From Acidimicrobiia bacterium (GTDB lineage Bacteria; Actinomycetota; Acidimicrobiia; UBA2766): DNA of 64,000 nt. Below, one piece after another: positions 528-59,625 of the stretch. Positions within the stretch are counted from its first letter, which is position 1. Every line of letters starts with the position of its first letter. Made by a program: the position numbers and the translations under genes. The stretch lies in contig JAIBAC010000001.1 in assembly GCA_019695375.1 (NCBI GenBank), positions 25,638 through 89,637 of the forward strand, in the 5' to 3' direction. The notes under the pieces are model-generated. The model worked only from the letters and a program-made list of their open reading frames with translations. It ran no database searches and had not been told where the DNA came from.

Positions 528-1742
528 TCATGTCGTGGCGGCCTCGACGCTGCCGCTGCGGCGCTTGAACCAGCGCGGCGGGAAGTCCCACCCCTCGCAA
601 CGGGCGAACACGGCCACGAAAGCCACGAGGATCGGGGTCGCGACGGCCGCGACGACCACCTGGCGCAGGATGATCGGCCAGCCGGTCAGGGTCGGCCACG
701 CCCCCACCCAGTGCACCGTCCACCACGCCAGCGAGTAGGCGAGCATGTGCCAGATGTAGATCGTGTAGTTGTTCGTCGCCATGTAGTCGACGAAGGGCCG
801 CACGCCCCGCACGCTCGAGAACCTCGTGAGCGACTCGCGTGCCCAGACGAGCAGGAGCATGGCGGCGCTGCCCCCCATCAGGTACGCCGCCGTGGGTGGG
901 AACTGGTTGCCGTCGTTGGCGGTCCCGAAGAGGTAGTCGGGGTAGGGGCCCGCGACCATGACCACGGTCGCGAGCGTGCAGACCGCGGCGCCGGGCAGGA
1001 GCCAGCGCCGCACCTTCTCGTACTCGCGGTCGATGTAGAAGAACCCGATGTAGGCGAAGAACGTCCACGTGGTCAGGATCCGCGCGAGGAGGAGCAGCGG
1101 TAGCCCTCCCAGCACCTTCTGGCCCAGGTCGCACGCGAGCGTCGTGCCCGCGAGCAGGACGGGGAACAGGTACTTGAGGCGCCTGCGCTGGTAGATGCGG
1201 GCGGCCCCCGGCATCACGAGCGTGATGAACATCAGCGCCGTGAGGAACCAAAAGGGAGCCTGCGTCACCCCGAGGCAGTCGAAGTGCGGGTACGGCATCA
1301 CCCACGAGAGCGCCTTGAGCGGGTTCATCGTGAACCACATCTCCGTGCTCCGGAGTGCGGGGTCGCCGCAGGCGCCGACCTTGGCCGCCCACAGCGTGAG
1401 CTCGAGCACGACCATCACGGCGGCGAACACGAAATAGGGGATCAGGAGTCGCTTGAAGCGGCGCGCGTAGTAGGTGCGCACGGACCCGAGGGCGCTCTTC
1501 TTGCTCAGCGCCCCCACCATCCCGAACCACATGGGCATGACGAACACGAGGATCCACGACATCCACGGCGCCTGGAAGTACCTGTCGATCCCGATCGAGT
1601 TGAGCCCGTTGTCCTGTACGACGAGGAAGAACCAGTGCGCGACGACGACGAGGAAGATCATCAGCGCCTGCGAGAACGTGACGAAGCGGTCCCGTTCGCG
1701 TGGCGGTGAGGACACGGCGGGCAGGTCGGGCGTTGCAGTCAT
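528..1742 (-). CDS. acyltransferase 3 family integral membrane protein
   Basis: Multi-TM protein with acyltransferase_3-like hydrophobic profile; start chosen at ATG 1742 (MTATPDLP...) inside longer ORF 528..1817. Confidence 0.7.
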   Translation of the reverse strand: MTATPDLPAVSSPPRERDRFVTFSQALMIFLVVVAHWFFLVVQDNGLNSIGIDRYFQAPWMSWILVFVMPMWFGMVGALSKKSALGSVRTYYARRFKRLLIPYFVFAAVMVVLELTLWAAKVGACGDPALRSTEMWFTMNPLKALSWVMPYPHFDCLGVTQAPFWFLTALMFITLVMPGAARIYQRRRLKYLFPVLLAGTTLACDLGQKVLGGLPLLLLARILTTWTFFAYIGFFYIDREYEKVRRWLLPGAAVCTLATVVMVAGPYPDYLFGTANDGNQFPPTAAYLMGGSAAMLLLVWARESLTRFSSVRGVRPFVDYMATNNYTIYIWHMLAYSLAWWTVHWVGAWPTLTGWPIILRQVVVAAVATPILVAFVAVFARCEGWDFPPRWFKRRSGSVEAATT

Positions 1743-1780
1743 CGGCGCGTACCTTCCGCCACCACCCCGGGATCTCCTGC

Positions 1781-1903
1781 CCCCGACGTGGGGACGTGAA
1801 ACGCCCTCACACACCACTTCGCGTCCCCACGTCGATGCCGACCCCCGACGTGGGGACGTGAAACGCCCTCACACACCACTTCGCGTCCCCACGTCGATGC
1901 CGG
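1781..1903. repeat. two perfect tandem copies of a ~62-bp unit, each containing a 13-bp inverted repeat (CGACGTGGGGACG / CGTCCCCACGTCG) around a 25-nt loop
   Basis: Direct reading: unit 1781-1841 repeated 1843-1903; intergenic between lipoprotein stop (1911) and acyltransferase start (1742). Confidence 0.9.
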
Positions 1904-1910
1904 GGGCACG

Positions 1911-2375
1911 TCAGCGGGCGGTGCCGAGCTCAGCGGAGCACTGTTCGGCCGCCTTCTGCACGGCCGGGTCCTGCGCGAGCTGAGCGAGAGCGGCTTCGTC
2001 GTAGGAGACCCGCCCACCGGAGTCGACGTTGGGCGACGGCACGGCGATCCCCTTGGTGCGCAGGCAGTCCACCATCGCGTCGATGGAGGCATCACCTCCG
2101 CTGCCCGACGACGACTTCGACGACGGCGAAGAGGGCGACGACGAGGACGAGGACGACGGCGGCGGCGAACCGGAGCGGTTCGTGGGCGCCGGCTGGACCA
2201 GGGTCGACGCGGCCGTGGTCGTGGTGTTGATCACCTCGACCGGAGTCCCCGGTTTCGTGGTGGTGGTGACCGGTTCCGCCCCCAACCGCCCGTCCGGGGC
2301 CGCTCCGCACGCGGCGGCCGCGAACACCGCTGCGAGCCCCAGCGCCAGCCCGGCCGCGGCACGCCCCCGGCTCAT
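1911..2375 (-). CDS. putative lipoprotein with poly-Ser/Pro linker
   Basis: N-term MSRGRAAAGLALGLAAVFAAAACG has signal peptide plus Cys lipobox-like; Ser-rich low complexity; ATGA overlap with upstream HAD gene. Confidence 0.6.
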   Translation of the reverse strand: MSRGRAAAGLALGLAAVFAAAACGAAPDGRLGAEPVTTTTKPGTPVEVINTTTTAASTLVQPAPTNRSGSPPPSSSSSSSPSSPSSKSSSGSGGDASIDAMVDCLRTKGIAVPSPNVDSGGRVSYDEAALAQLAQDPAVQKAAEQCSAELGTAR

Positions 2376-2972: not shown

Positions 2973-3743
2973 TCAGATCGGCAGGCGGCGGAACACGGCG
3001 CGGGGCATGTGACGCAAGCCGCTCATCACCCACCGGAACAGGGGCGGCGCCCACACGATCTCCTTGCCGGTGGCGACGCCTTCGACGATGATCCGCGCCA
3101 CGTCGCCGGCATCGACGGCGAGCGGTGCAGCAGCCATGCCGGCCGTCATCTTGGTCTTGACGAAGCCAGGCCGCACGATCAGCACCCGTGCACCGGTGCC
3201 CTGCAGGCGGTCCTGAAGCCCCTGGGCCACGTAGTCGAGGCCCACCTTGGACGCGCCGTAGACGAAGTTCGACCTGCGCGGTCTCTCCGCCGCTGCCGAC
3301 GACATCACGACCGCGGTGCCGTGGCCTTGCTGCTCGAGGCGGTTCGCGATCGGCATCAGCAGCGAAACCGCTCCCGTGAGGTTCGTTCGCAGTTCGGCGA
3401 GGGCGGCTCGTGCATCGCGGGAGTTGCGGTCCTGGTCGCCGAGCACACCCCAGGCGAGATGGACGACGTCGAAGTCGCCGTAGTGGCCGAACACGCCGTC
3501 GACGAAGCGCTGGTGCTCGTCGGGGTCTGCCCACGCGTCGAAGCCCACGACCTCGGCCGTGGCGGCGCCGGCGGCGCGCAGCGCGGCCGCGTTCTCCTCT
3601 GCCGCGGCCTTGTCGCTCTCGAGGGCCGCGAGGACGACGACGCGGGCTCCGCGCTCGACGAACGCGAGCGCCGTGGCGCGGGCGATGTCGGATGCTCCTC
3701 CGAGGACGAGGAGCGAGTCGACTTTGCCGAGGGCGTCTTGCAT
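2973..3743 (-). CDS. dprE2: decaprenylphospho-2-keto-ribose 2-reductase DprE2-like short-chain dehydrogenase
   Basis: SDR Rossmann motif GGASDIARA, 256 aa, immediately downstream of DprE1 homolog as in mycobacterial Rv3790-Rv3791. Confidence 0.8.
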   Translation of the reverse strand: MQDALGKVDSLLVLGGASDIARATALAFVERGARVVVLAALESDKAAAEENAAALRAAGAATAEVVGFDAWADPDEHQRFVDGVFGHYGDFDVVHLAWGVLGDQDRNSRDARAALAELRTNLTGAVSLLMPIANRLEQQGHGTAVVMSSAAAERPRRSNFVYGASKVGLDYVAQGLQDRLQGTGARVLIVRPGFVKTKMTAGMAAAPLAVDAGDVARIIVEGVATGKEIVWAPPLFRWVMSGLRHMPRAVFRRLPI

Positions 3744-3776
3744 GGCTGTGTCTTCCGATCTCGGGTCGGGGACGGG

Positions 3777-5144
3777 TCAGACGAGGCGGAGCCTGCGTGC
3801 GAGGTCGGAGCGCATGACCCCGTCGGGATCGAGCTTCGCGCGCACCTCACGCCAGCGGTCCAGCTCTGGGTACATCGCCGCGAACACGTCGGGGTCGACG
3901 CGGCTGTCCTTCGCCAGGTAGATGCGCCCACCGGCTGCGAGCACGTGCTGGTCGAGCTCGTCGAGCATCGCGGCGAGGCCACGGGTGCGTGTGGGGATGT
4001 CGAGGGTCAGCGTCCATCCCTCCATCGGGAAGCTGAGCATCCCCGCGTTCGCGCGCCCGAAGCGCTTGAGCACCGTCACCGGCGATGCGGCACCGCCGTG
4101 GGCGAGGCGTTCCACGGCATACCGGACCGTCGCCTCGGCCCCGAACGGCACGACGAACTGGTACTGCAGGAACCCGCGTGGCCCGTAGAGGCGGTTCCAG
4201 TCCGTGACCCCGTCGAGGGGATGGAAGTACGCGGGCACGGATTCGACGGCGGTTCGCGGGTTGCGCGGCGATTTCGTGTACCACGCCCAGTTGAACGCGC
4301 CGATCGAGAAGCGGTTGACGACTCCGACCGGCAACGGCGGCACCTGCACGCGCTCGGGGGCCGAGTAGTCGAGCGGCTCGTGCCGTCGCGCGGGTTCGAG
4401 GTCGTCGAGGCGCGTGTGCTCTGCGTGCATGAGGATCCCGCGCCCGAGGTTCGCTCCCGTGGCCAGCGAGTCGAACCAGGCCACCGCGTAGCGGTGACCC
4501 GCGTCGGTGGCCTCCATGGTCTCCATGAGCTCGTCCAGATGCGGGATCCGCCGCGTGGCGACGGTCATGTAGGCGGTTTCGACGGGGACGAGCTGCAGCA
4601 CAGCACGGGTCACGATCCCCGTCAGCCCCATCCCACCCGCCGTCGCCCAGAACACCTCCGGGTTGGTCGCGGCCGAGACCCCGGTGTAGGTGCCCGATGG
4701 TGCGAGCAGGTCGAACGAGACGACGTGGTCGCAGAAGCTCCCGTCGACGTGGTGGTTCTTGCCGTGGATGTCGGCGGCGATCGCGCCGCCGACGGTGACG
4801 TTGCGGGTGCCTGGCAGCACCGGCGGGAACCAACCGTGGGGGATGACGAGCTCCATGAGCTTGTCGAGGCCGAGGCCGGCGTCGACCTCCACGACGCCGG
4901 TCTCCCAGTCGGCGGCCACGGCGCAGTCGAGGCTCGTCATGTCGACGACGGCGCCGCCGGCGTTCTGAGCGGCATCGCCGTAGGAGCGCCCGAGCCCGCG
5001 GGCGATGATCCCACGCGGCCCGGCGGCGGCTAGTGCGCGCGAGACGTCGTCGCCGACGGCCGGCAGCACGACATCGGCACCTGTCGGGACGGTGCGGCCC
5101 CAGCCCGAGAGCGCGCGGCGCCGCGAGGCGGCCTCACTTGACAT
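3777..5144 (-). CDS. dprE1: decaprenylphosphoryl-beta-D-ribose oxidase DprE1 (FAD-linked)
   Basis: 455 aa FAD-binding PCMH-type oxidase; N-term LSGWGRT motif and overall similarity to DprE1 family. Confidence 0.85.
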   Translation of the reverse strand: MSSEAASRRRALSGWGRTVPTGADVVLPAVGDDVSRALAAAGPRGIIARGLGRSYGDAAQNAGGAVVDMTSLDCAVAADWETGVVEVDAGLGLDKLMELVIPHGWFPPVLPGTRNVTVGGAIAADIHGKNHHVDGSFCDHVVSFDLLAPSGTYTGVSAATNPEVFWATAGGMGLTGIVTRAVLQLVPVETAYMTVATRRIPHLDELMETMEATDAGHRYAVAWFDSLATGANLGRGILMHAEHTRLDDLEPARRHEPLDYSAPERVQVPPLPVGVVNRFSIGAFNWAWYTKSPRNPRTAVESVPAYFHPLDGVTDWNRLYGPRGFLQYQFVVPFGAEATVRYAVERLAHGGAASPVTVLKRFGRANAGMLSFPMEGWTLTLDIPTRTRGLAAMLDELDQHVLAAGGRIYLAKDSRVDPDVFAAMYPELDRWREVRAKLDPDGVMRSDLARRLRLV

Positions 5145-6159
5145 ACAGGCCCACCGCGAAACAGCCGAGCCACACGAGCCCGATCACCTGCAGCATGCGG
5201 TCGCCGAGGATTACCTCCTCGGGCGCGCCGCCGCGACCCTGGTCGCACACCATCGCGTACCGGAACAGGGCGAGCAGGAACGGCGCGATCGAGAGCTGGA
5301 ACCAGATGGCACCGCCGATCTCGTCGGCGCGCTCGAAGGCCCACAGGCAGTAGGCGGAGATGCAGACCGCGGAGGACACCGTGCGCATGTGGTTGAGGAG
5401 GTCGACGGAGTAGTCCGCGAGGGCGGCTCGCGTCTTGGTGGCGGAGTCCTCACCGACGTCGTGCAGTTCGGCGCGCCTCTTGGCGACGACCATGAACAAC
5501 GATCCGAACGAGGTCACGATGATGAACCACTGCGAGATCGGCACTCCCGTCGCGACGCCGCCTGCGAGGGCGCGCAGTATGAACCCGGCGGCGACCACCG
5601 CGATGTCGAGCAGCGCGATGTGCTTCATCCAGATGCTGTAGTTCAACGTCAGCGTCAGGTAGACGGCGATCACGACGCCGAGCTGCCACGTGCCGAAGCC
5701 AAACGCGAGGCCGACAGCGGCGGCCATGAGGCCGACTCCCACGGTCCAGCCCAGCCACAGCGGCACGATGCCTGCGGCGATCGGCCGGTGCCGTTTGCGC
5801 GGATGGTGGCGGTCGGCGTCGACGTCACGTGCGTCGTTGACGAAATACGTGCCCGACGCAGCGAGCGAGAAGACGACGAACGCGAGCACTGCGTCCACGA
5901 GGACGTCGCGGTCGAGCAGCATCCCGGCGGCTCCGGGCGCCGCGAACACGAGGACGTTCTTGACCCACTGCTTGGGGCGCGCTTCTCGCAGGAGGCCGCC
6001 TGCGAGTGTGTCCTTCCACGTCCGCGCCGTCTCGGGCCGGGGTGTGGCGGGGACACCCGCCACGTCGACGTCGGGGGCGGTGTCGGTGGTCATGGGGTCA
6101 TCGGGGGGCGGCGCGGGCTGGTCGCGGTGCGAAGGTGGCTTCGGCACCGGCGAGTTCAT
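5134..6159 (-). CDS. decaprenyl-phosphate phosphoribosyltransferase (UbiA prenyltransferase family, Rv3806c-like)
   Basis: UbiA-family membrane protein with NDxxDxxxD motif (FVNDARDVDADRHH); start set at ATG 6159 (AGGA-like RBS), alternative ATG 6093. Confidence 0.75.
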   Translation of the reverse strand: MNSPVPKPPSHRDQPAPPPDDPMTTDTAPDVDVAGVPATPRPETARTWKDTLAGGLLREARPKQWVKNVLVFAAPGAAGMLLDRDVLVDAVLAFVVFSLAASGTYFVNDARDVDADRHHPRKRHRPIAAGIVPLWLGWTVGVGLMAAAVGLAFGFGTWQLGVVIAVYLTLTLNYSIWMKHIALLDIAVVAAGFILRALAGGVATGVPISQWFIIVTSFGSLFMVVAKRRAELHDVGEDSATKTRAALADYSVDLLNHMRTVSSAVCISAYCLWAFERADEIGGAIWFQLSIAPFLLALFRYAMVCDQGRGGAPEEVILGDRMLQVIGLVWLGCFAVGLYVK

Positions 6160-12906: not shown

Positions 12907-12981
12907 GCCCTCGTAGCTCAGGGGATAGAGCACCGGCCTCCGGAGCCGGGTGCGGAGGTTCGAATCCTCCCGGGGGCGCCA
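12907..12981 (+). tRNA. tRNA-Arg (anticodon CCG)
   Basis: Hand-folded cloverleaf: acceptor GCCCTCG/CGGGGGC, D-arm GCTC AGGGGATA GAGC, anticodon loop CUCCGGA, T-arm GGAGG TTCGAAT CCTCC, discriminator G plus CCA. Confidence 0.8.
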
Positions 12982-32040: not shown

Positions 32041-32046
32041 CGCCCG

Positions 32047-32174
32047 GCCCCACGCCAAACGCGGGCGGAATCGCCCGCGAGCACGTCAGACCACCCGCGT
32101 TTGGGGGACGGACCCACGCCAAACGCGGGCGGAATCGCCCGCGAGCACGCCAGACCACCCGCGTTTGGGGAGGT
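32047..32174. repeat. two tandem ~64-bp copies (1-2 mismatches) each containing 11-bp inverted repeat CCAAACGCGGG/CCCGCGTTTGG and nested GCGGGCG-GAAT-CGCCCGC hairpin
   Basis: Direct reading; located between pilX-like stop and major pilin start. Confidence 0.9.
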
Positions 32175-32301: not shown

Positions 32302-32673
32302 ATGAAGAGACAGTTCGAGCGGCTGCACGCCGCGCGGGTGGGCGAGGGTGAAGGCGGGTTCACCCTGATCGAGCTCCTGATAGTTATCGTGATCCTCGGC
32401 ATCCTCGCCGCCGTCGTCGTCTTCTCGGTGAGCGGCATCACCGACACCGGCGACCAGGCAGCCTGCACGTCGAGCCGCTCCGCGATCGAGACCGGCCTCG
32501 AGGCCGCCTACGCGAAGTCGAACCCGAAGGCTTACCCGGTGGACCTCGCGGCACTGCAGGCTTCGGGAATGGTTGGCGAGCTCAACGGTGTGACTGCGAC
32601 GTGGACGGTCAACGCCGGGCCTCCGCAGACGATCAGCGGACTGACCGTCAGCACCCCGACCACCACCTGCTGA
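32302..32673 (+). CDS. pilA: type IV major pilin (prepilin with G/FTLIELL cleavage-methylation site)
   Basis: 123 aa; leader MKRQFERLHAARVGEGEGG then FTLIELLIVIVILGILAAVV; GGAGA RBS. Confidence 0.85.
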   Translation: MKRQFERLHAARVGEGEGGFTLIELLIVIVILGILAAVVVFSVSGITDTGDQAACTSSRSAIETGLEAAYAKSNPKAYPVDLAALQASGMVGELNGVTATWTVNAGPPQTISGLTVSTPTTTC

Positions 32674-49338: not shown

Positions 49339-49368
49339 CCTACACGGGCGCGGCCACCCCGCCGGGGA

Positions 49369-50589
49369 TCAACCGAAGAGGTGGTCGCCGATCCGCAACA
49401 GGCCTCCGAGGTCGGCGATGTCCACCTCGAACTGGGGTACACGCGCGATGACGTCGGCGTTGCCGGTGGACAGCTCCGCCTGCATCTCGGCCTCGCGCTT
49501 GGCGACGACCGCGAAGTTCTCGAAGTTGTCGGCGATGGTGCGCAGGATCCCTGCCGTGCGCGCCTCGTCGCCGAAGGCGACCGGGTCGAGGGCGTCGAGG
49601 CGCTTGGCCGTCTCACCGGCGTTGGCGACGTCGTCGAGACGTTGCGCGACGGCCGCTGCCGCGGGGTCGTGGAGGAAGTCCGGCAGCGCGCGGTTCAGCA
49701 CCAGCGCGCCGAGGTCGAAGTCGAGCTCCTCGAGCTTGGTGCAGAAGAACTCCGCCTCGGCGAGCGGTGCCGACTCCAGGGTGCTCACGACGCAGAACGT
49801 CGTGCGGCGGTCGTGCAGCAGCTTCTCGACCTCGCGGGCGCGGGTCACGAAGCCCTCCTGCATCGACTGGAAGTTGAGGAAGAACTCTCCGAGACGGCGC
49901 ATGAAGTCTCCGCCGAGAAGGCGGTCGGCCATGCGGTAGAACGGCCGCGCGGCGAAGTCCAGCGCGCGCACGCCGCGTTTGCCGCCGACCTTGTACGGAA
50001 GCGTGAGCACACGCAGGAACCAGCCGCCGAAGAAGTCCGCCATCCGCTCCGGCGCCTCCAGGAAGTCGATGGCGTTGCGCGTGGGAGGCGTGTCGATGAC
50101 GATGAGGTCGTACTCGCCGGAGCGGTGCAGCTCGTAGAGGCGCTCCATCGCGATGTACTCGTGGGCGTTGATGAAGCGGCCGGTGATGTTGTGGTACAGC
50201 GGGTTCTCGAGGATCTTGTACGCCGTCTCCTCGTCCGGCGCGTACCGGTGCACGAGGTCGTCCCAGCTCCGTTTGGTGTCGAGCATCGCCGCGAACATGC
50301 GCCCGCGCGGCTCCACGCCCGCCTCACGGAACTTCTCAGTCGGCACCTCGCGCGCGACGTTGCCGATGCCCTCGAGACCGAGCGCCGTGGCGAGGCGGCG
50401 TGCGGGGTCGACCGTGAGCACGAGGACGGAACCGCCGAGCCGAGCCGCCGCCACTGCGGCCGCGGCCGCAGCCGCCGACGTCTTGCCGACCCCGCCGGAG
50501 CCGCAGAAGATCACCATCTCCTTGGACGCGAGAAGGTGCTCGAACGACGTGTGCACCGACGTGTCGTCGCGCCTGCGGGTCCGGCTCAC
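49369..50589 (-). CDS. ArsA-family (Get3-like) ATPase
   Basis: P-loop CGSGGVGKT, DTPPT motif; paired with second ArsA-like gene. Confidence 0.75.
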   Translation of the reverse strand: MSRTRRRDDTSVHTSFEHLLASKEMVIFCGSGGVGKTSAAAAAAAVAAARLGGSVLVLTVDPARRLATALGLEGIGNVAREVPTEKFREAGVEPRGRMFAAMLDTKRSWDDLVHRYAPDEETAYKILENPLYHNITGRFINAHEYIAMERLYELHRSGEYDLIVIDTPPTRNAIDFLEAPERMADFFGGWFLRVLTLPYKVGGKRGVRALDFAARPFYRMADRLLGGDFMRRLGEFFLNFQSMQEGFVTRAREVEKLLHDRRTTFCVVSTLESAPLAEAEFFCTKLEELDFDLGALVLNRALPDFLHDPAAAAVAQRLDDVANAGETAKRLDALDPVAFGDEARTAGILRTIADNFENFAVVAKREAEMQAELSTGNADVIARVPQFEVDIADLGGLLRIGDHLFG

Positions 50590-51581
50590 AGGCCCATCTC
50601 CGCTGCCAGAGCGTCTGCCACGAGGCGTGTCGCCCGCTTGCCGTGGCTGCGCGTGAACAGATACGGGACGTACATCATCGGGAGCGGCACCTCCGATCGG
50701 AGGCGCCGGATGTGCTCAACCCGCGTGCGCCGCAGCGTCACTGCGAGGCGGGCGGCTTCGAGGACCGGCTCGAGCGGAGCGCCGACCACCGATTCGGCTG
50801 CTTCGACGGCGTCGGCGTCACCGAGGCGATCGAACGTGTCTTCCTCGGCCGTCGTGAACAGCTCGGGCAGCACACGGTTGACCACGACGCCTGCGAGGCG
50901 GACGTCGAGTGCCTCCGTCGCGTGGTAGAGCTCGATCGTCTCCGAAACCGGCATCTCCTCGGGCGTCGCCACGATCAGCAGCGCCGTGCGGTTCGGATCG
51001 GCGAGCACCTCGCGCATCCAATCGGTCTGGGTGCGCACCATCCCGACCTCGAACAGTTCGTTGATCGCGGCCGGGGCGTCGAGCTGGCCGACGATGCGCC
51101 CCGTCGGGGCGGCGTCGACGACGATCAGGTCCCACTTGAAGTCGACACCTTCGGTCAGCGTCGCCTCGTACGCGATCTTGCCGACCGTGAGGATCTCCTT
51201 GACCCCCGGCGCCGCGTTGGCGACGAACTCGAAGATCGACGAGAGCGGCCCGATGCGGCTCATCATCCCCATCTTGAGGAAGATCTGGAGGTACTCGCGC
51301 AGTGAGTCCTCGGTGTTCATCGTCATCGACCACAGTCCGGGACGGATCTCGACGGGGTCGTAACCCACCCGCGGGTGCTCGAAGAAGTCGGTCAGGTTGC
51401 CCTTGGCGTCGACCTCGACCATGAGCGTGCGCTTGCCGAGGCTCGCCGCCAGCTCACCGATGGCAGCCGCGATGGTCGACTTGCCGGTGCCGCCCTTGCC
51501 GGTGACGAAGAGGAGCTGGCGACCGAGCAGATCGAGCGCAGACGTGGGGTCAGCGCTCTGTGCCTCGGGGACGGCGTTCAT
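50586..51581 (-). CDS. ArsA-family ATPase (second paralog)
   Basis: P-loop GKGGTGKST, VVDAAPTG motif; ATGA overlap with downstream paralog. Confidence 0.75.
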   Translation of the reverse strand: MNAVPEAQSADPTSALDLLGRQLLFVTGKGGTGKSTIAAAIGELAASLGKRTLMVEVDAKGNLTDFFEHPRVGYDPVEIRPGLWSMTMNTEDSLREYLQIFLKMGMMSRIGPLSSIFEFVANAAPGVKEILTVGKIAYEATLTEGVDFKWDLIVVDAAPTGRIVGQLDAPAAINELFEVGMVRTQTDWMREVLADPNRTALLIVATPEEMPVSETIELYHATEALDVRLAGVVVNRVLPELFTTAEEDTFDRLGDADAVEAAESVVGAPLEPVLEAARLAVTLRRTRVEHIRRLRSEVPLPMMYVPYLFTRSHGKRATRLVADALAAEMGL

Positions 51582-51632
51582 CCCAAGCAGGTTTGCAGGA
51601 TTCGTCGGTAACGGCGAAACCGTGCCCGTCCG

Positions 51633-51869
51633 TCACGCCATGAAACCGATACCGCCGGCCTTCGAGCCGTCCTCGACCTCGACGTAGGTGAGCTTGTCGG
51701 TGGGCACGACGACCGTCTTGCCCTTGGAGTCTGTGACCCGCACGAACTTGTCGGCGGCGCTGATCGCGCTGGTAAGCGACTCGAGCACGTCACCGGCTTC
51801 GCCTTCGACCTCGAGCTCGAGCTCCTTGGCGGAGAAAACCACGCCGAGATGAACCTTGGTCGTCGCCAT
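51633..51869 (-). CDS. DUF3107-family small protein
   Basis: 78 aa MATTKVHLGVVFSAKELELE... typical of actinobacterial DUF3107 found next to ArsA pair. Confidence 0.6.
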   Translation of the reverse strand: MATTKVHLGVVFSAKELELEVEGEAGDVLESLTSAISAADKFVRVTDSKGKTVVVPTDKLTYVEVEDGSKAGGIGFMA

Positions 51870-51902
51870 CGTCGAAAGCCTCTCAGGTCTGCGGGGTCGG
51901 TC

Positions 51903-52595
51903 TCACGGGTCGACGCTCGGTCGACGCGGGTCGGAGCCGGGCGATCTTACATTGGCCCATCCGCCGTGGTGACGCTGCGCCCAAGCGCGGTCGACGTGTC
52001 CGGTGGCCATCCCTCGCAGGGCCTCGCGGTCACGAAGGCCGAGCACGACGTGCCCTGCGACGACGAGGACAAGCGCGGCGGCCGTCAGGTCGTGGACGAG
52101 GTTTGCGCCCGCCTTGAGCCACTGCGGGAAGTGGGTGTGGAAGAACATGATCGTGCCGGTGCCGGCGAGCACCGCGATCGCGGCGGCTGTGAACGCGGCG
52201 TTGAGCTTCTGGCCGGGATTGAACTTGCCGACCGGTGGTGGAGGGACACCGCCACGGCGCGCGAAGAGGTCGGCGCGCCAGCCGCCGTGGACCCAGTCTG
52301 CGTCGGCGGCGTCGCGCAGGTCGATCTCGCGCAGGTCGGCGCGCAGGCCCCGGCCCCACGATCCCGCCAATGCGAGCAGTGCCCAGGCGACGATCGAATA
52401 GCCAGCGGTGTCGTGGGCGACACGTACGAGCTCGCGACGACCGACGGCCTCCGACAGCGCCGGGACGAACATGATCGCCCCCGTCGCCGCGAGGACGGCG
52501 AACCCGACTGCGTTGGCCCAGTGGAACGCACGCGTGTTCAGGTCGAAGCGCCGGACCGTCACGGGCGAGGCGTGTTCAGGTGGACTTGTAGCCAT
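51903..52595 (-). CDS. cytochrome b (Ni/Fe-hydrogenase-type b561) membrane subunit
   Basis: 4 TM helices with conserved His (FHWANAVGF, AHDTAGY, FFHTHF); start uncertain (52595 or GTG 52562). Confidence 0.6.
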   Translation of the reverse strand: MATSPPEHASPVTVRRFDLNTRAFHWANAVGFAVLAATGAIMFVPALSEAVGRRELVRVAHDTAGYSIVAWALLALAGSWGRGLRADLREIDLRDAADADWVHGGWRADLFARRGGVPPPPVGKFNPGQKLNAAFTAAAIAVLAGTGTIMFFHTHFPQWLKAGANLVHDLTAAALVLVVAGHVVLGLRDREALRGMATGHVDRAWAQRHHGGWANVRSPGSDPRRPSVDP

Positions 52596-53301
52596 TGGAC
52601 GCACCAACCCATCCGTCCTGGTCGTAGCCGCGCACCTCCCAGTATCCGGGGTCGGCCGAGTCGGTGACCGTGATCTCGCTCACCCACTTGGTGCCCTTGT
52701 AGCCGTACATCGACGGCACGATCACCCGCGCCGGGTAGCCCTGGGCCTGTGACAGCGGTTCACCGCCGAGGTGGGTGGCGATGAGGTTCTCGGGCCGGCG
52801 GGCCTGCTCCATCGTGAGCGACTCGGTGTAGGCGCCGTCGAAGCTGGCGAAGGCCACAGCGCCGTCCGTGCTCGACGCGCCGGCTGCGTCGAGCACGGTT
52901 GCGAGCGGCACCCCGCTCCACACGCAGTCGTAGACGCTCCAGCCGGTGACGCAGTGGAAGTCACTGGTCTCGTCGACTGTGCCGAGTCCTCGGAGGCTCC
53001 CGTAGTCCAGCGACAGGGGGCTGTCGACGTCACCGGCGACGGCGAGGCGCCAATCTGCGAGGCTCGCAGTGGGCAACGAGTCGGTGACGGTGTAGATGCG
53101 GAACCTTCCCGTCGGCAGGACGCGCGACACCGTCTGCTGGGCGGCCTTGCCCAACACACCGGCGACGACCGTGGCGCCGGCCCCGAGACCGACCAGAGAC
53201 AGGAACGCCCGCCTTCCGACGCCGCGGCGCACCGGCTCGAGCGCGCCGGCCTCGACGGCGTCGGTTACGTCGCCGGCTGCGGGTGAGTCGCTCATCCCCA
53301 C
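52576..53301 (-). CDS. molybdopterin-dependent oxidoreductase, sulfite-oxidase family (MsrP/YedY-like) with Tat signal
   Basis: RRAFLSLVGLGAGA twin-arginine signal; Moco-binding Cys region (FHCVTGWS). Confidence 0.75.
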   Translation of the reverse strand: MGMSDSPAAGDVTDAVEAGALEPVRRGVGRRAFLSLVGLGAGATVVAGVLGKAAQQTVSRVLPTGRFRIYTVTDSLPTASLADWRLAVAGDVDSPLSLDYGSLRGLGTVDETSDFHCVTGWSVYDCVWSGVPLATVLDAAGASSTDGAVAFASFDGAYTESLTMEQARRPENLIATHLGGEPLSQAQGYPARVIVPSMYGYKGTKWVSEITVTDSADPGYWEVRGYDQDGWVGASNGYKST

Positions 53302-53350
53302 AGTCTCGTCCGCGTACCGGCGGTGGTCATGGGTTCTCTGCAGCCTCGTG

Positions 53351-54475
53351 TCACATGAGCTTCAGCTCAGGGCGGCGGATCCTGGTTCGCTGCGTGGCGG
53401 CGATCGCGTCCGCGATGCGGACGATCTCGGTGGCCGCAGGCGAGTCGGGGTGGGCTGCGACCACCGGGCGTCCCGCGTCGGCACCCTCACGCAGGACCTC
53501 GTCGATGGGGACCTGGCCCAGGAGCGGCACGTCGAGGTGCTCCGCGAGAGCCTCGCCGCCACCCTCTCCGAAGATGGCACGGTGGCTGCCGTCGGCCTCG
53601 ACGAGCCAGCTCATGTTCTCGATCACACCGAGAACCCGCTGGTTCGCCTTCTTCGCCATCGCGCCGGCTCGCACCGCGACCCGCTGCGCGGCGAGCTGCG
53701 GTGTCGTGACCACGACGACCTCGACCGTCGGCAGGAACTGCGAGAGCGAGATCGCTATGTCGCCCGTCCCCGGCGGCATGTCGACGAGGAGGTAGTCGAG
53801 CTCACCCCAGTACACGTCGACGAGGAACTGCTCCATCGCCTTGTGCAGCATCGGGCCGCGCCACACCACGGCCTGGTCCTCGTCGACGAAGTAGCCGATC
53901 GAGACGCAGCGCACACCGTGGACCTCCGGCGGCACGATCACGCGCCCGACGAGGTTGGGGGGACGGTCGACGCCGAGCATCCGCGGTATCGAGAAGCCCC
54001 AGACGTCGGCGTCGACGAGGCCCACTGCGGCGCCGTCCCGCGCAAGGGCGACGGCGAGGTTCGTGGTGATCGACGACTTCCCGACGCCGCCCTTGCCCGA
54101 GCTGACGGCGATCACGCGGGCGCGCGAAGCCCCCGATTGGAAGACGTTCTCACGGGTCTGACCCGGCATCGAGTCGGGAGCGACCTCGAGCACCTCCATC
54201 AGGCGGTCGAGCTCGGCGTCGTCCATCGTGTGCACGTCGAGCTCGACACGATCGCCGGCGGCAGCACCCACGGCGGTGGACTCGATCGAGGCGAGCAGGG
54301 CGTCGCGCCAGGGGTGGGAGTCCGAGGTGAGCGCGACCTCGACGGTCAGGCGGCCACCCTCGCGGCGCAGATCGGAGATCATCCCCAGCTCGACGATCGA
54401 GCGGCGCAGCTCGGGATCCTCCACTTCTGACAGCGCTTCGCGGACGGCTCCCAGTACGGCGTCGTCAGTTGCCAT
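53351..54475 (-). CDS. mrp: Mrp/ApbC-family Fe-S cluster carrier ATPase with N-terminal DUF59-like domain
   Basis: P-loop SGKGGVGKSS, CxxC-type motif region; start ATG 54475 within very long ORF. Confidence 0.85.
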   Translation of the reverse strand: MATDDAVLGAVREALSEVEDPELRRSIVELGMISDLRREGGRLTVEVALTSDSHPWRDALLASIESTAVGAAAGDRVELDVHTMDDAELDRLMEVLEVAPDSMPGQTRENVFQSGASRARVIAVSSGKGGVGKSSITTNLAVALARDGAAVGLVDADVWGFSIPRMLGVDRPPNLVGRVIVPPEVHGVRCVSIGYFVDEDQAVVWRGPMLHKAMEQFLVDVYWGELDYLLVDMPPGTGDIAISLSQFLPTVEVVVVTTPQLAAQRVAVRAGAMAKKANQRVLGVIENMSWLVEADGSHRAIFGEGGGEALAEHLDVPLLGQVPIDEVLREGADAGRPVVAAHPDSPAATEIVRIADAIAATQRTRIRRPELKLM

Positions 54476-54523
54476 GGGCAGCGTTTCCTCGCTCAGGGGG
54501 ACTGCCCGAAAACTATAATCACC

Positions 54524-55336
54524 ATGTCCGTAGGAGAAATTCGGCGCAGCACGCGCTGGAGTTCGTACCGAAAGATGCCCCCTACAGTGCCCTCGACGGC
54601 TCCACGCCCGACCCCGACACCACCCGACCCGCCTGCCCCGCAGGCCGGGTTGTCGGAGCGTCTCGACGAGGTGAGCCGCGCCTTCGGCGACCCCACACGG
54701 CGCGCCATCTACTTCGAGGTCGTCGACTCCGGCAGCACGACCGTCGCCCACATCGCCGACCGTTTCGGCGTGCACCCGAACGTCGCCCGCCACCACCTCG
54801 AACGCCTCCTCGTCGACGGATACCTCGAGGTCGCGGCGCCCGAGGCGCACAGCCGCCGCGGAGCCGGTAGGCCGTCCAAGCGCTACGTGCCCTCGGCCAA
54901 GGAGGTCGGCCTCGGCGTCGAGACCGCCCACGACGAGCACCTCCTCGTCGAACTGCTGCTCGCGACGCTCACGACGCTTGAACCCGCCGATGCGTCGCGC
55001 CTCGCCGAGCAGGCAGGCGCCGAGTACGGCCGGCGCCTCGCCTCTTCCTCGCTCACCCCCGACCAGCAGTGCGAGTCCCACGACCAGCTCCTGGCCTCGG
55101 TCGCGGCCTCCCTGTCGGACCACGGCTTCGCCGCGACGGCCAATCCCGGCAACGACGAGATCGTGAGCGAGGCGTGCCCGTTCGGCGAGATCGCCCAGCG
55201 GTTCCCCCACGTCGTCTGTGCCCTGGACCACGGGATGGTCCGCGGCATGGTCGAACACCTGAGCGGAACACCCGTCGAGATACGGCAGGGACGCAGCCGC
55301 GCCCAGGGTGACGCCGCCTGCGCCACGAGCTTCTGA
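54524..55336 (+). CDS. ArsR/SufR-type winged-helix regulator with C-terminal Cys-containing domain
   Basis: HTH (TVAHIADRFGVHPNVARHHLERLLVDGYL), C-terminal Cys residues (SEACPFG...VVCALDHG); directly upstream of cysteine desulfurase. Confidence 0.55.
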   Translation: MSVGEIRRSTRWSSYRKMPPTVPSTAPRPTPTPPDPPAPQAGLSERLDEVSRAFGDPTRRAIYFEVVDSGSTTVAHIADRFGVHPNVARHHLERLLVDGYLEVAAPEAHSRRGAGRPSKRYVPSAKEVGLGVETAHDEHLLVELLLATLTTLEPADASRLAEQAGAEYGRRLASSSLTPDQQCESHDQLLASVAASLSDHGFAATANPGNDEIVSEACPFGEIAQRFPHVVCALDHGMVRGMVEHLSGTPVEIRQGRSRAQGDAACATSF

Positions 55337-58954: not shown

Positions 58955-59625
58955 AAACTACAAAGGCGCCCGGCCTGCTCCCCACAAGGCGCTCGGCACT
59001 TCCTCCCACGGACCTCGTGAACCACGTACCTCGACCCGTGGACGTCAAGAGAGGAAGCACCTCGGCCTGCTTTCCACAGAGGCGCTCGGCACTTCCTCCC
59101 ACGGACCTCGTGAACCACGTACCTCGACCCGTGGACGTCAAGAGAGGAAGCACCTCGGCATGCTTTCCACTGAGGCGCTCGGCACTTCCTCCTACGGACC
59201 TCGTGAACCACGTACCTCGACCCGTGGACGTCAAGAGAGGAAGCACCTCGGCCTGCTTTCCCCTGAGGCGCTCGGCGCTTCCTCCTACGGACCTCGTGAA
59301 CCACGTACCTCGACCCGTGGACGTCAAGAGAGGAAGCACCTCGGCCTGCCACTCCACAAGGCGCTCGGCGCTTCCCTCCTACGGACCTCGTGAACCACGT
59401 ACCTCGACCCGTGGACGTCAAGAGAGGAAGCACCTCGGCCTGCCACTCCACAAGGCGCTCGGCGCTTCCCTCCACAAAGGCGCTCGGCGCTTCCTCCTAC
59501 GGACCTTGTGAACCACGTACCTCGACCCGTGGACGTTGAGAGAGGAAGCACCTCGGCCTGCTACCCGTGCCGCTCCAGACAGGAAGCACCTCGGCCTGCC
59601 ACTCCACAAGGCGCTCGGCGAGGTC
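58955..59625. repeat. array of ~7 tandem 93-bp structured repeats (MIRU/VNTR-like), last units degenerate
   Basis: GGCGCTCGGC anchor recurs at 58988, 59081, 59174, 59267, 59360, 59454, 59478 (period 93/94); each unit has nested inverted repeats (CACTTCCTCC..GAGGAAGCAC, CCACG..CGTGG). Confidence 0.9.

What the first reader, a model, noticed from the sequence alone, without database searches (positions are those of the whole stretch)
1781..1903. Perfect tandem duplication of a 62-bp hairpin element (13-bp stem, 25-nt loop) between a lipoprotein gene and an acyltransferase gene
Each unit carries CGACGTGGGGACG...CGTCCCCACGTCG. Two identical copies argue for a recent duplication or an actively maintained element. 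It sits at the 3' end of the long lysA-to-HAD operon and 5' of the acyltransferase, so it could be a terminator/attenuator pair, a structured sRNA, or a miniature mobile repeat.
Basis: seen in the sequence. Interest (0 to 1): 0.5.

Follow-up and report, generated by a model that had tools for sequence, protein, structure and literature searches.

The report
Two-copy array of dispersed hairpin repeat
The duplicated 62-bp hairpin is neither a one-off duplication nor a purpose-built terminator: it is one small array of a REP/BIME-like repeat family that fills intergenic gaps of related Acidimicrobiia genomes in head-to-tail arrays, all pointing the same way along each large contig.

Summary
Window 1780-1840 and 1842-1902 are identical, and each copy carries a perfect 13-bp inverted repeat.

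It is not a local oddity. The same hairpin, with a 25-nt inner segment, occurs in at least 59 arrays (154 units) in the part I could fetch of a related genome, the Acidimicrobiia MAG STL-ACT9. That genome is about 81% identical to the window in the one region they share. Two-unit arrays are the commonest form there (33 of 59).

- **Position:** arrays sit right after gene ends. Of 36 resolved contexts, 18 were convergent, 15 co-directional and 3 divergent.
- **Turnover:** the window's site is empty in three relatives that keep the same gene order. One site filled in the MAG is empty in the window.
- **Orientation:** it is mixed relative to transcription but fixed per contig, about 25/25 on one 1.5-Mb contig and 24/24 the other way on a 1.3-Mb contig. 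Gene-strand bias and GC skew mostly place the G-rich strand on the leading strand.

Best reading: a non-autonomous, REP/BIME-like repeat that probably spreads through single-stranded DNA. No transposase was found. Any terminator or mRNA-stabiliser effect would be secondary. The family appears undescribed.

The parts
1842..1902 (-). Repeat unit 1 in mRNA / G-strand order, the promoter-proximal copy: 5' extension CGGCATC, 51-nt hairpin, GGGGG tail
1780..1840 (-). Repeat unit 2 in mRNA / G-strand order, identical to unit 1
1784..1834 (-). Hairpin of the 1780-1840 copy. The 13-bp perfect outer stem is 1784-1796 / 1822-1834. The 25-nt inner segment is 1797-1821 and forms six further pairs on the - strand.
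1846..1896 (-). Hairpin of the 1842-1902 copy. The outer stem is 1846-1858 / 1884-1896.
1835..1845 (-). Linker between the hairpins, read on the - strand as GGGGGTCGGCATC when the outermost stem bases are included. It is the family's short G/T-rich linker type that gives the 62-bp period.
1743..1784 (-). Native spacer kept from the empty site: GGGGGCAGGAGATCC...GGAAGG (ribosome-binding site at 1752-1757)...ATG. It is conserved in relative L099, which lacks the repeat.
   Evidence: alignment A1
528..1742 (-). Downstream gene, an Acyl_transf_3 acyltransferase. It is not part of the element and marks the insertion site.
1911..2375 (-). Upstream ORF, a putative secreted protein or lipoprotein with no Pfam hit. 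Its stop codon is at 1911-1913, 8 nt from the first unit.
53302..53350 (.). Empty site in the window. It corresponds to a 3-4-unit array of the same family in MAG locus L062 4382-4607.

Best explanation
**Shown.** The 2 x 62-bp repeat is a two-unit, head-to-tail array of a dispersed intergenic hairpin repeat family of an Acidimicrobiia lineage.
- A unit has a short 5' extension (about TTCGGATG; here CGGCATC), then a 51-nt hairpin, then a G/T-rich tail or linker. The hairpin has an invariant 12-13-bp outer stem GACGTGGGGACG/CGTCCCCACGTC around a 25-nt inner segment. The linker is about 12-13 nt (period 62) or about 22-24 nt (period 72).
- The array was acquired in this species' lineage, because the orthologous spacer in relatives is 40-52 bp and has no hairpin.
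- Arrays grow by local duplication, because units within an array share private variants.
- The family's orientation is fixed along Mb-scale contigs and independent of the direction of transcription.

**Inferred.**
- The G-rich strand lies on the leading strand, which is the lagging-strand template. I put this at about 0.75.
- The family therefore spreads through single-stranded DNA exposed at replication forks, cut and joined by an HUH/Y1-type enzyme (RAYT, TIRYT or IS200-like) that recognises the hairpin. This is the mechanism proposed for REP/BIME and IS200/IS605. I put it at about 0.4-0.5, and the enzyme was not found.

**Local consequence in the window (inferred, untested).** The two -31 kcal/mol hairpins now sit in the lipoprotein-acyltransferase intercistronic RNA, upstream of an intact ribosome-binding site. 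There they could protect the upstream mRNA 3' end or partly attenuate read-through. That would be a by-product, not the reason the sequence exists.
For: **Dispersal.**
About 55 of them are in one MAG, STL-ACT9.
- nhmmer defined 59 arrays and 154 units there. Array sizes were 1 (7 arrays), 2 (33), 3 (9), 4 (4), 5 (3), 7 (2) and 9 (1). Periods peak at 60-62 and 71-73.
- The window genome is a different species from the MAG. Only 49363-54543 aligns, at about 81%.

**Turnover.**
- The L062 array corresponds to an empty site in the window.
- The window's site is empty in L099, L102 and L105, whose acyltransferases are 78%, 77% and 64% identical and which keep the HAD-lipoprotein-acyltransferase gene order.
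- A same-species contig (L093) carries the array with one SNP.

**Location.** Of 36 resolved contexts, 18 were convergent, 15 co-directional (10 with the G-strand sense, 5 antisense) and 3 divergent. Arrays usually start 5-25 nt after a stop codon.

**Polarity.**
- All arrays on contig 3 (8 kb to 1.48 Mb) are '-'. One call, L035, was ambiguous and was resolved as '-' by its linker. All arrays on contig 4 (208 kb to 1.34 Mb) are '+'.
- 279 genes are co-oriented with the G-strand against 175 opposed (p = 1e-6). The replication component of GC skew has the expected sign in contig 4 (+0.0135, SE 0.003), in the small '-' contigs (-0.027) and in the window (-0.0215, SE 0.005).
- On contig 8, element orientation flips together with gene strand.

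**Strand asymmetry.** The inner helix is 87% paired on the G strand (449 Watson-Crick plus 263 G.T) and 59% paired on the C strand, over 82 unique units.

**Link to Y1 transposases.**
- In Virgibacillus profundi, a hairpin with the same 11-nt stem lies 35 bp from a Y1_Tnp gene whose closest solved relative is E. coli TnpA-REP. GGGGACGGTTCT copies lie on both sides of that gene.
- Inverted repeats flanking TIRYT genes share the motif GGGGWSAS (PMC3733652).

**Match to E. coli BIME-2.** BIME-2 elements form tandem copies that are well conserved within a locus, with linkers variable in length and sequence and copy number variable between loci and strains (PMC3333891). All of this matches.
Against: - No RAYT, TIRYT or IS200-type gene was found in the 64-kb window or in about 0.45 Mb of MAG loci, by motif scans and tblastn.
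- No gene there is flanked by single arms of the hairpin.
- Quentin et al. 2018 report that Actinobacteridae carry only IS200-type Y1 genes.
- The replication proxies are weak. Raw GC skew is uninformative. The first 424 kb of contig 3 shows neither gene-strand bias nor skew although the elements stay '-'. Polarity relative to replication is therefore supported, not proven.
- The G.T asymmetry is largely inherited from the family consensus. It could also reflect leading-strand mutation bias rather than selection for a fold.
- As DNA, the two strands fold about equally well.
- The units are head-to-tail and have no unpaired GTAG or CGTC tag, unlike classical REPs.
Confidence: 0.8

Rival explanations
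1. A terminator or attenuator pair that evolved in place to end the upstream operon or to gate expression of the acyltransferase.
For: - The hairpins are strong (about -31 kcal/mol each as RNA), lie 8 nt after a stop codon and are on the sense strand.
- Many family members sit at gene 3' ends, half of them between convergent genes.
- From my own knowledge: hairpins without U-tracts have been proposed as terminators in high-GC actinobacteria, but this is contested.
Against: - There is no U-tract, and the consensus scan found no terminator.
- The spacer in relatives is 40-52 bp, has the same ribosome-binding site and has no hairpin. The genes are therefore natively co-transcribed and the structure is an insertion.
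- The same sequence occurs at 59 or more unrelated loci.
- Family orientation relative to transcription is mixed, 10 sense and 5 antisense. This is what the 61% gene-strand bias alone predicts.
Confidence: 0.07
2. A chromosome-architecture element kept by the host. Its polarity would be maintained by selection, for example as binding or loading sites for a replication, segregation or topology protein (in the manner of KOPS, or of gyrase at BIME-2), rather than by the insertion mechanism.
For: - Orientation is absolute over Mb-scale contigs.
- The outer stem is invariant while the inner segment and linkers drift.
- E. coli BIMEs bind gyrase, IHF and Pol I (PMC3333891).
Against: - Density is low, about one array per 60 kb.
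- Sites turn over between species about 80% identical.
- Copy number per site is highly variable, 1 to 9.
- The elements avoid divergent promoter regions and pile up at gene ends, as tolerated selfish DNA does.
- This reading still needs a separate mechanism for dispersal.
Confidence: 0.12
3. A structured small RNA gene, or another cis-acting RNA motif such as a riboswitch or protein-binding leader, for the acyltransferase.
For: The region has a significant fold. G.U pairs favour the sense strand at this locus.
Against: - There is no Rfam match and no promoter-like site.
- It is absent from the orthologous leader in relatives.
- Family members lie next to unrelated genes and in both transcriptional orientations.
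Confidence: 0.03
4. A neutral, one-off slippage duplication of a chance palindrome.
For: The two copies are identical. Arrays do appear to grow by local duplication.
Against: The same hairpin, with the same unit architecture, occurs 154 or more times in a related genome and also in a second MAG. Two units is the family's modal state.
Confidence: 0.01

Closest known systems
E. coli BIME-2 (tandem REP/iREP clusters associated with the RAYT TnpA-REP)
   Same: - Both are intergenic and high-copy, and both are inverted-repeat units repeated in tandem.
- Copies within one locus are nearly identical.
- Linkers come in short and long forms and vary in sequence.
- Copy number differs between loci and between strains.
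- Both are enriched after gene ends (PMC3333891; PMC3733652; here).
   Different: - Each arm here is a plain 13-nt sequence, not itself a 35-nt palindrome, so the unit is one long hairpin.
- Units are strictly head-to-tail.
- There is no unpaired GTAG tag.
- Orientation is strictly fixed per contig. The REP papers I searched for 'leading strand', 'strand bias' and related terms returned no such report.
- No RAYT was found.
- The host is an actinobacterial class, not a proteobacterium.
REPINs (REP doublets forming hairpins) mobilised by single-copy RAYTs
   Same: Both have two inverted conserved arms around a less conserved middle, forming a long hairpin. Both are non-autonomous and are present in populations of tens to hundreds per genome.
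   Different: REPIN arms are REPs with their own stem and a GTAG tag. REPINs are mostly singletons rather than head-to-tail arrays. A flanked RAYT defines that system and was not found here.
IS200/IS605-family ends and their miniature derivatives (PATEs)
   Same: - Both are strand-specific hairpins acting in ssDNA.
- In both, orientation is locked to the lagging-strand template (PMC6006769; PMC3333891).
- A two-hairpin, same-orientation element resembles a left end plus right end with nothing in between. This fits the two-unit mode here.
   Different: IS200/IS605 hairpins are short and imperfect, with guide tetranucleotides and defined target sequences. No such target or TnpA was identified here. 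Linkers differ between loci, so the dimer does not look like one fixed mobile unit.
TIRYT-associated inverted-repeat families (Di Nocera et al. 2013; subclass 2.1 of Quentin et al. 2018)
   Same: - The G-run motif matches in part: GGGGACGT here against the consensus GGGGWSAS.
- Both are moderately abundant families organised in dimers or clusters.
- A hairpin with the identical 11-nt stem abuts a TIRYT-like Y1_Tnp gene in Virgibacillus.
   Different: The motif matches at only 6 of 8 positions. The inner sequence differs: GTTCTTT... in the Firmicutes copies against TGAGGTGGG... here. No TIRYT gene was seen in the Acidimicrobiia data.
Mycobacterial interspersed repetitive units (MIRU-VNTR)
   Same: Both are actinobacterial, intergenic, 40-100-bp tandem units with variable copy number inside operons. 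Both would be useful for strain typing.
   Different: From my own knowledge, MIRUs are not palindromic, follow the operon's orientation and carry short ORFs coupled to the flanking genes. Here the units are hairpins and their orientation ignores transcription.
Intrinsic (Rho-independent) terminators
   Same: Both are GC-rich hairpins just downstream of a stop codon.
   Different: There is no U-tract, the hairpin is 51 nt long, it is duplicated, and it is absent from the orthologous site.

Membership tests
REP/BIME (RAYT-associated repetitive extragenic palindromes) | Short palindromic unit present in many intergenic copies per genome | tested here: met
   At least 154 units in at least 59 arrays in the fetched part of MAG STL-ACT9, almost all intergenic. 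The unit is 51 nt, longer than the classical 20-40 nt.
REP/BIME (RAYT-associated repetitive extragenic palindromes) | Conserved unpaired GTAG (or CGTC) tag at the foot of the hairpin | tested here: not met
   There is no GTAG. GACG/CGTC occurs, but inside the paired stem. CGTC-type REPs have 8-9-bp stems that start with AT pairs and 4-5-nt loops, which does not fit.
REP/BIME (RAYT-associated repetitive extragenic palindromes) | Units mainly paired in inverted orientation (head-head or tail-tail; REPIN/BIME) | tested here: not met
   All multi-unit arrays of the STL-ACT9 family are head-to-tail. The one mixed call is in the variant family of the second MAG (L076).
REP/BIME (RAYT-associated repetitive extragenic palindromes) | A cognate RAYT gene flanked by the repeats (REPtron) | tested here: inconclusive
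   None was found in the window plus about 0.45 Mb of MAG loci. That is only about 12% of that genome, and RAYTs are usually single-copy.
IS200/IS605-derived miniature elements (PATE) | Orientation tied to the replication direction, with the active strand on the lagging-strand template | tested here: inconclusive
   Orientation is uniform per contig. Gene-strand bias (279 against 175) and skew agree in most segments, but contig 3 from 8 to 424 kb is neutral. The origin and terminus were not located.
IS200/IS605-derived miniature elements (PATE) | Defined tetra- or pentanucleotide target 5' of the left end, with no target duplication | tested here: inconclusive
   The filled-versus-empty comparison places the array between TGA...CCC and GGGGGCAGG. 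The species are too diverged (about 78% identity) to fix the junction.
IS200/IS605-derived miniature elements (PATE) | A TnpA (Y1) of the IS200 type in the genome | tested here: inconclusive
   tblastn with IS200 and IS608 TnpA sequences written from memory, plus motif scans, found nothing in the sequence held. The whole genome was not available.
TIRYT-associated TIR repeats | GGGGWSAS motif in the repeat arms | tested here: inconclusive
   The arm reads GGGGACGT, matching 6 of 8 positions.
TIRYT-associated TIR repeats | Repeats flank a TIRYT gene | tested here: inconclusive
   Met only for the Virgibacillus hairpin that shares the stem. No such gene appeared in the Acidimicrobiia loci.
Intrinsic terminator | GC-rich stem with a 3-8-nt loop followed by a U-tract | tested here: not met
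   The scan found 0 terminator-like sites in 1400-2400. On the sense strand each hairpin is followed by GGGGG.
Known RNA families (Rfam 15) | A match at or above the family's gathering score | tested here: not met
   The only hit in the window is a tRNA at 12907-12978.
MIRU-type VNTR | Units oriented with the operon and carrying short ORFs coupled to the flanking genes | tested here: not met
   Orientation relative to the flanking genes is mixed, 10 sense and 5 antisense, and 18 arrays lie between convergent genes. ORF coupling was not examined.
CRISPR array | Conserved repeats separated by unique spacers of about 30 nt, usually with cas genes nearby | tested here: not met
   The 'spacers' are 12-24-nt G/T-rich linkers that resemble one another. 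Arrays are mostly 2 units long and scattered at 59 or more loci.

The most novel reading that the evidence does not exclude
The family is a previously unrecognised kind of replication-polar, head-to-tail hairpin element in Actinomycetota. It would spread through the lagging-strand template using an enzyme that is not a classical REP-flanked RAYT: either a distant TIRYT-like or other HUH enzyme, or another ssDNA nuclease. This would be in a phylum whose genomes were reported to carry only IS200-type Y1 genes. Its orientation would then mark replication direction on contigs where GC skew is nearly flat.
Probability: 0.35. Interest if true: 0.75.

Novelty: new variant of a known kind. Interest (0 to 1): 0.55.

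Why it matters
1. **It corrects the annotation.** The element should be read as selfish or structural repeat DNA, not as a dedicated regulator of the acyltransferase.
2. **It describes an apparently unreported repeat family.** The family has an unusual mix of properties: head-to-tail arrays, an invariant stem, and orientation that in the sample is 100% fixed over megabase contigs. If the polarity tracks replication, the family is a natural record of ssDNA-based spread in a lineage where no REP/RAYT system is known. It would also give a practical marker for orienting MAG contigs.
3. **It explains assembly breaks.** Every short-read contig of this species ends inside the repeat. Only the large-contig MAG (contigs of 1.3-1.5 Mb) shows full arrays.
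4. **It offers typing loci.** Copy-number variation per locus would allow VNTR-style typing of these uncultured Acidimicrobiia.

Tried and rejected
- **Rfam, gathering thresholds.** Nothing at the locus.
- **Promoter and terminator consensus scan.** Nothing.
- **Search for a mobilising enzyme.**
  - RAYT motif scan of six-frame translations: only the Virgibacillus gene.
  - tblastn with that gene and with IS200/IS608 TnpA sequences written from memory: no hit in the Acidimicrobiia loci or the window.
  - Scan for isolated stem arms flanking a gene: none.
  - Protein-database search with a RayT-like consensus written from memory: 7802 hits, none on a contig whose length matches a STL-ACT9 contig. 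Uninformative.
- **Other collections.** The metagenome scan gave only 6 hits, all of the GGGGACGGTTCT, Firmicutes-like type and none next to a Y1 gene. The viral scan gave 0 hits.
- **Recurrent neighbouring genes.** An all-against-all clustering suggested a paralogue family next to arrays. Pfam showed unrelated proteins (Oxidored_molyb, ECH, Polysacc_deac) linked only by translated repeat sequence, so this was an artefact.
- **Raw GC skew per locus.** Uninformative. Only the strand-corrected component gave a signal.
- **RNA-level selection as the cause of the G.U asymmetry.** Rejected as the main explanation, because orientation relative to transcription is what the gene-strand bias alone predicts.
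- **Literature.** Full-text searches for the stem sequence, and for 'Acidimicrobiia' together with 'repetitive extragenic palindromic', found nothing relevant.

Full report
**1. The observation**

The window contains two identical 61-nt copies, 1780-1840 and 1842-1902, spaced 62 nt apart. Tandem Repeats Finder scores them at period 62, 100% matches, score 246, and the repeat finder lists them as D13.

Each copy holds a perfect 13-bp inverted repeat, CGACGTGGGGACG / CGTCCCCACGTCG, with 25 nt between the arms. The exact 13-mer occurs only at these four places in the 64 kb.

The region folds much better than shuffled sequence: z = -6.7 on the + strand and -3.2 on the - strand.

Both flanking genes are on the - strand.
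- The ORF 1911-2375 ends 8 nt before the repeat. It has no Pfam hit and a signal-peptide-like N-terminus.
- The Acyl_transf_3 gene 528-1742 starts 38 nt after the repeat.

On the sense (-) strand the '25-nt loop' forms six more pairs, two of them G.U. There is no U-tract, no consensus promoter or terminator and no Rfam family. The description is therefore correct, with coordinates off by one.

**2. It is a member of a dispersed family**

I scanned one genome per species for ACGTGGGGACG-N15-35-CGTCCCCACGT.
- About 55 loci lie in a single MAG, 'Acidimicrobiia bacterium STL-ACT9' (JAXLRM01; contigs of 1.5 and 1.34 Mb plus smaller ones).
- Several more lie in a second actinobacterial MAG, SOY_34_metabat_58.

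A profile built from 139 units and searched with nhmmer defined 59 arrays and 154 units in the fetched MAG loci.
- Array sizes were 1 (7 arrays), 2 (33), 3 (9), 4 (4), 5 (3), 7 (2) and 9 (1).
- Unit spacing peaks at 60-62 and at 71-73 nt.

The window's 'perfect tandem duplication' is thus the family's commonest form.

The window is not from that MAG. Only 49363-54543 aligns, at about 81% identity.

**3. Anatomy of a unit**

Read on the G-rich strand, a unit has three parts:
- a short 5' extension, typically TTCGGATG (CGGCATC in the window);
- the hairpin GACGTGGGGACG - 25 nt - CGTCCCCACGTC, whose inner consensus is TGAGGTGGGTTGTGGACCCGTTTTG;
- a G/T-rich linker, either short (12-13 nt, for example GGTCTGGGTTACG) or long (22-24 nt), often continuing after the last unit as (GGGGGTC)n-like tracts.

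Conservation differs by part.
- The outer stem is invariant, although that is partly a consequence of the search pattern.
- The inner segment varies between loci but is nearly identical within a locus.
- The linkers vary most. In the 9-unit array of L054, I count about 9 differences in 104 linker positions against 1 in about 440 hairpin positions.

The window's inner segment is only 15/25 identical to the MAG consensus, while its stem and its linker type match.

Across 82 unique units, the ten inner pairs are 87% paired on the G strand (449 Watson-Crick plus 263 G.T) but 59% paired on the C strand.
- As RNA, the consensus G strand is a continuous helix of about 24 bp (-39.5 kcal/mol, against -31.2 for the C strand).
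- As DNA, the two strands differ little.

Much of this asymmetry is inherited from the consensus. It could also reflect leading-strand mutation bias, so I do not read it as proof of selection for a fold.

**4. Where the arrays sit**

Of 36 arrays with both neighbours resolved, 18 lie between convergent genes, 15 between co-directional genes and 3 between divergent genes. They usually begin 5-25 nt after a stop codon.

Among the co-directional cases, the G strand is sense in 10 and antisense in 5. This is what the 61% gene-strand bias predicts by itself. Nothing therefore indicates a strand-specific RNA role.

One array lies in frame inside dnaX, between domain III and the tau C-terminal domain.

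**5. Turnover**

The window's site can be compared with relatives found through the acyltransferase.
- Contigs L099 (78% identity), L102 (77%) and L105 (64%) keep the order DprE1-like oxidase, SDR, HAD, lipoprotein-like ORF, acyltransferase.
- Their spacers are 52 bp, 40 bp, or overlapping, with no hairpin.

In the alignment, the segment GGGGGCAGGAGATCC...GGAAGG...ATG is shared between the window and L099. The 124-bp array sits between the stop codon and that segment.

A same-species metagenome contig (L093) carries the array with one loop SNP. Conversely, a 3-4-unit array in MAG locus L062 corresponds to an empty 49-bp spacer in the window.

The element is therefore gained and lost on the time scale of species divergence. 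It is not a conserved regulatory feature of this operon.

Every short-read (Logan) contig of this species breaks inside the repeat.

**6. Polarity**

Because the stem pattern is its own reverse complement, the scan could not select for orientation. Yet orientation is uniform per contig.
- Every array on contig 3 (24 loci, 8 kb to 1.48 Mb) has its G strand on '-'. The one ambiguous profile call, L035, is '-' by its linker.
- Every array on contig 4 (23 loci, 208 kb to 1.34 Mb) has it on '+'.
- Contigs 5 and 6 are '-' and contig 7 is '+'.
- Contig 8 is '+' at 40 kb and '-' at 96-128 kb.

Proxies for replication direction mostly agree that the G strand is the leading strand, which is the lagging-strand template.
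- 279 genes are co-oriented with the G strand and 175 are opposed (p = 1e-6).
- The gene-strand bias is opposite on contigs 3 and 4 (Fisher p = 0.003).
- The strand-corrected GC skew is +0.0135 +/- 0.003 on contig 4, -0.027 on the small '-' contigs and -0.0215 +/- 0.005 in the window.
- On contig 8 the element flips together with gene strand, in a convergent arrangement that would fit a terminus.

The weak point is contig 3 from 8 to 424 kb. It shows no gene-strand bias and no skew, although its elements remain '-'. I therefore put about 0.75 on the polarity tracking replication.

**7. How it probably works**

The following combination is what is described or proposed for elements handled as single-stranded DNA by HUH/Y1 enzymes:
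- a conserved hairpin;
- strand-specific organisation;
- insertion polymorphism;
- a preference for gene ends;
- tandem amplification with variable linkers.

The published parallels are these.
- IS200/IS605 elements excise from and insert into the lagging-strand template (PMC6006769; PMC3333891).
- E. coli TnpA-REP cleaves and joins BIME ssDNA and is proposed to add BIME units in tandem.
- The description of BIME-2 in that paper matches this family closely: tandem copies conserved within a locus, linkers variable in length and sequence, copy number variable between loci and strains.

There is one lead to a specific enzyme class.
- The scan also found long hairpins with the same 11-nt stem in Firmicutes and other phyla, extended as GGGGACGGTTCT....
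- In Virgibacillus profundi, one such hairpin lies 35 bp upstream of a Y1_Tnp gene (Pfam E = 4.9e-13). The gene's closest solved relative is E. coli TnpA-REP (4ER8, E = 5.5e-6). GGGGACGGTTCT copies lie on both sides of the gene.
- This resembles the 'TIRtron' arrangement of TIRYT transposases, whose flanking repeats share the motif GGGGWSAS (PMC3733652; PMC6006769).

However, I found no Y1 gene of any kind in the window or in about 0.45 Mb of the MAG. Quentin et al. also report only IS200-type Y1 genes in Actinobacteridae. The mechanism is therefore an inference, at about 0.4-0.5. The membership tests for REP/BIME fail on two defining features, the unpaired GTAG tag and the inverted pairing.

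**8. Local consequence**

In relatives, the lipoprotein-like gene and the acyltransferase are 40-52 bp apart and share a ribosome-binding site, so they are presumably co-transcribed. In the window's species, two -31 kcal/mol hairpins now sit in that intercistronic RNA with the ribosome-binding site intact.

They could block 3'-exonucleases, offer a double-strand-specific RNase a target, or attenuate read-through. None of this is tested, and the lack of a U-tract argues against efficient intrinsic termination.

**9. Comparison and novelty**

The element works most like BIME-2/REP clusters and, in its polarity, like IS200/IS605-type ssDNA elements. It is not a demonstrable member of either.

Full-text searches found no description of the motif and no paper that mentions both Acidimicrobiia and 'repetitive extragenic palindromic'. 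A 2025 REP survey lists Acidimicrobium ferrooxidans only in a table of palindrome counts.

I rate it a new variant of a known kind: a REP/BIME-like family with head-to-tail arrays and strict chromosomal polarity in Actinomycetota.

**10. Verdict**

- The 'mobile repeat' reading is supported. The terminator, attenuator and sRNA readings are not supported as the element's identity.
- Interest is moderate (0.55).

Noticed in passing
window 32045-32170; L079 3602-3719: A second tandem hairpin family ('B'): 64 bp x 2 at 97% identity, with an 11-bp stem CCAAACGCGGG/CCCGCGTTTGG. It lies between a + strand gene ending at 32040 and a pilin-like gene starting at 32303. Two tandem copies (83% identical) also occur in the MAG. 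In both genomes family B points the opposite way to family A, so it may be polar too.
   Followed up: partly
window 58971-59561: A third intergenic tandem array ('C'): 93-bp units x about 6 at 95% identity, each with internal inverted repeats. It lies between the stop of an enoyl-CoA hydratase gene (59624, - strand) and the start of the next - strand gene (58948). No clear copy was found in the fetched MAG loci.
   Followed up: partly
L086 4217-4350 (MAG contig 5): A two-unit array with a 71-72-nt period (24 codons) lies in frame inside dnaX (3778-5586, - strand), between domain III and the tau C-terminal domain. Di Nocera et al. 2013 noted that intragenic REPs are often found in replication and repair genes.
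   Followed up: partly
L047 2040-3300 and 255-310 (Virgibacillus profundi): A RAYT/TIRYT-like Y1_Tnp gene (2150-2923, - strand) has a long hairpin, GAAACGTGGGGACGGTTCT...AGAACCGTCCCCACGTTTC, 35 bp upstream. GGGGACGGTTCT copies lie on both sides, and further copies of the hairpin are nearby. Related hairpins occur in Oscillospiraceae, Syntrophomonadaceae and Clostridia genomes and in two high-GC metagenome contigs.
   Followed up: partly
L016 7887-7924, L029 5142-5179, L030 4314-4350, L055 2927-2964 (Amycolatopsis): A conserved 38-nt hairpin, ACGTGGGGACG-CGTGT..-CGTCCCCACGT, has strikingly AT-rich flanks in genomes that are otherwise about 65% GC. It recurs in three Amycolatopsis species. It was not examined further.
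   Followed up: no
L060 5802-7112 (MAG contig 3): Two arrays in the same orientation, of 3 and 2 units, flank a 1-kb segment. The segment encodes a DUF559 / REase_MTES_1575 protein with an AbiEi_4 N-terminus. This could be coincidence or a cargo-like arrangement.
   Followed up: partly
MAG contig 8, between L063 (40-48 kb) and L025 (96-104 kb): Element orientation and gene-strand majority both flip, in a convergent sense, somewhere between 48 and 96 kb. This is a candidate replication terminus. Only one array lies on the left side.
   Followed up: partly
MAG contig 3, 8-424 kb (L041...L071): All twelve loci keep the '-' element orientation. Yet this segment shows no gene-strand bias (47 + against 40 -) and no strand-corrected GC skew, unlike the rest of the contig. 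This is unexplained and is the main caveat to the replication-polarity reading.
   Followed up: partly
L001-L011, L094-L098 (Logan contigs of the window's species): All short-read contigs covering the flanking genes end inside the repeat, 31 nt or one unit in. The element therefore systematically fragments k-mer assemblies of this organism.
   Followed up: yes
window 2973-5144 and upstream: The operon upstream of the repeat encodes a DprE1-like FAD oxidase (3777-5144), a DprE2-like SDR (2973-3743) and a HAD hydrolase (2372-2965). On a related same-species contig a UbiA-family gene lies upstream. This is an arabinan-type decaprenyl-phosphoryl sugar pathway signature in an Acidimicrobiia genome.
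   Followed up: no
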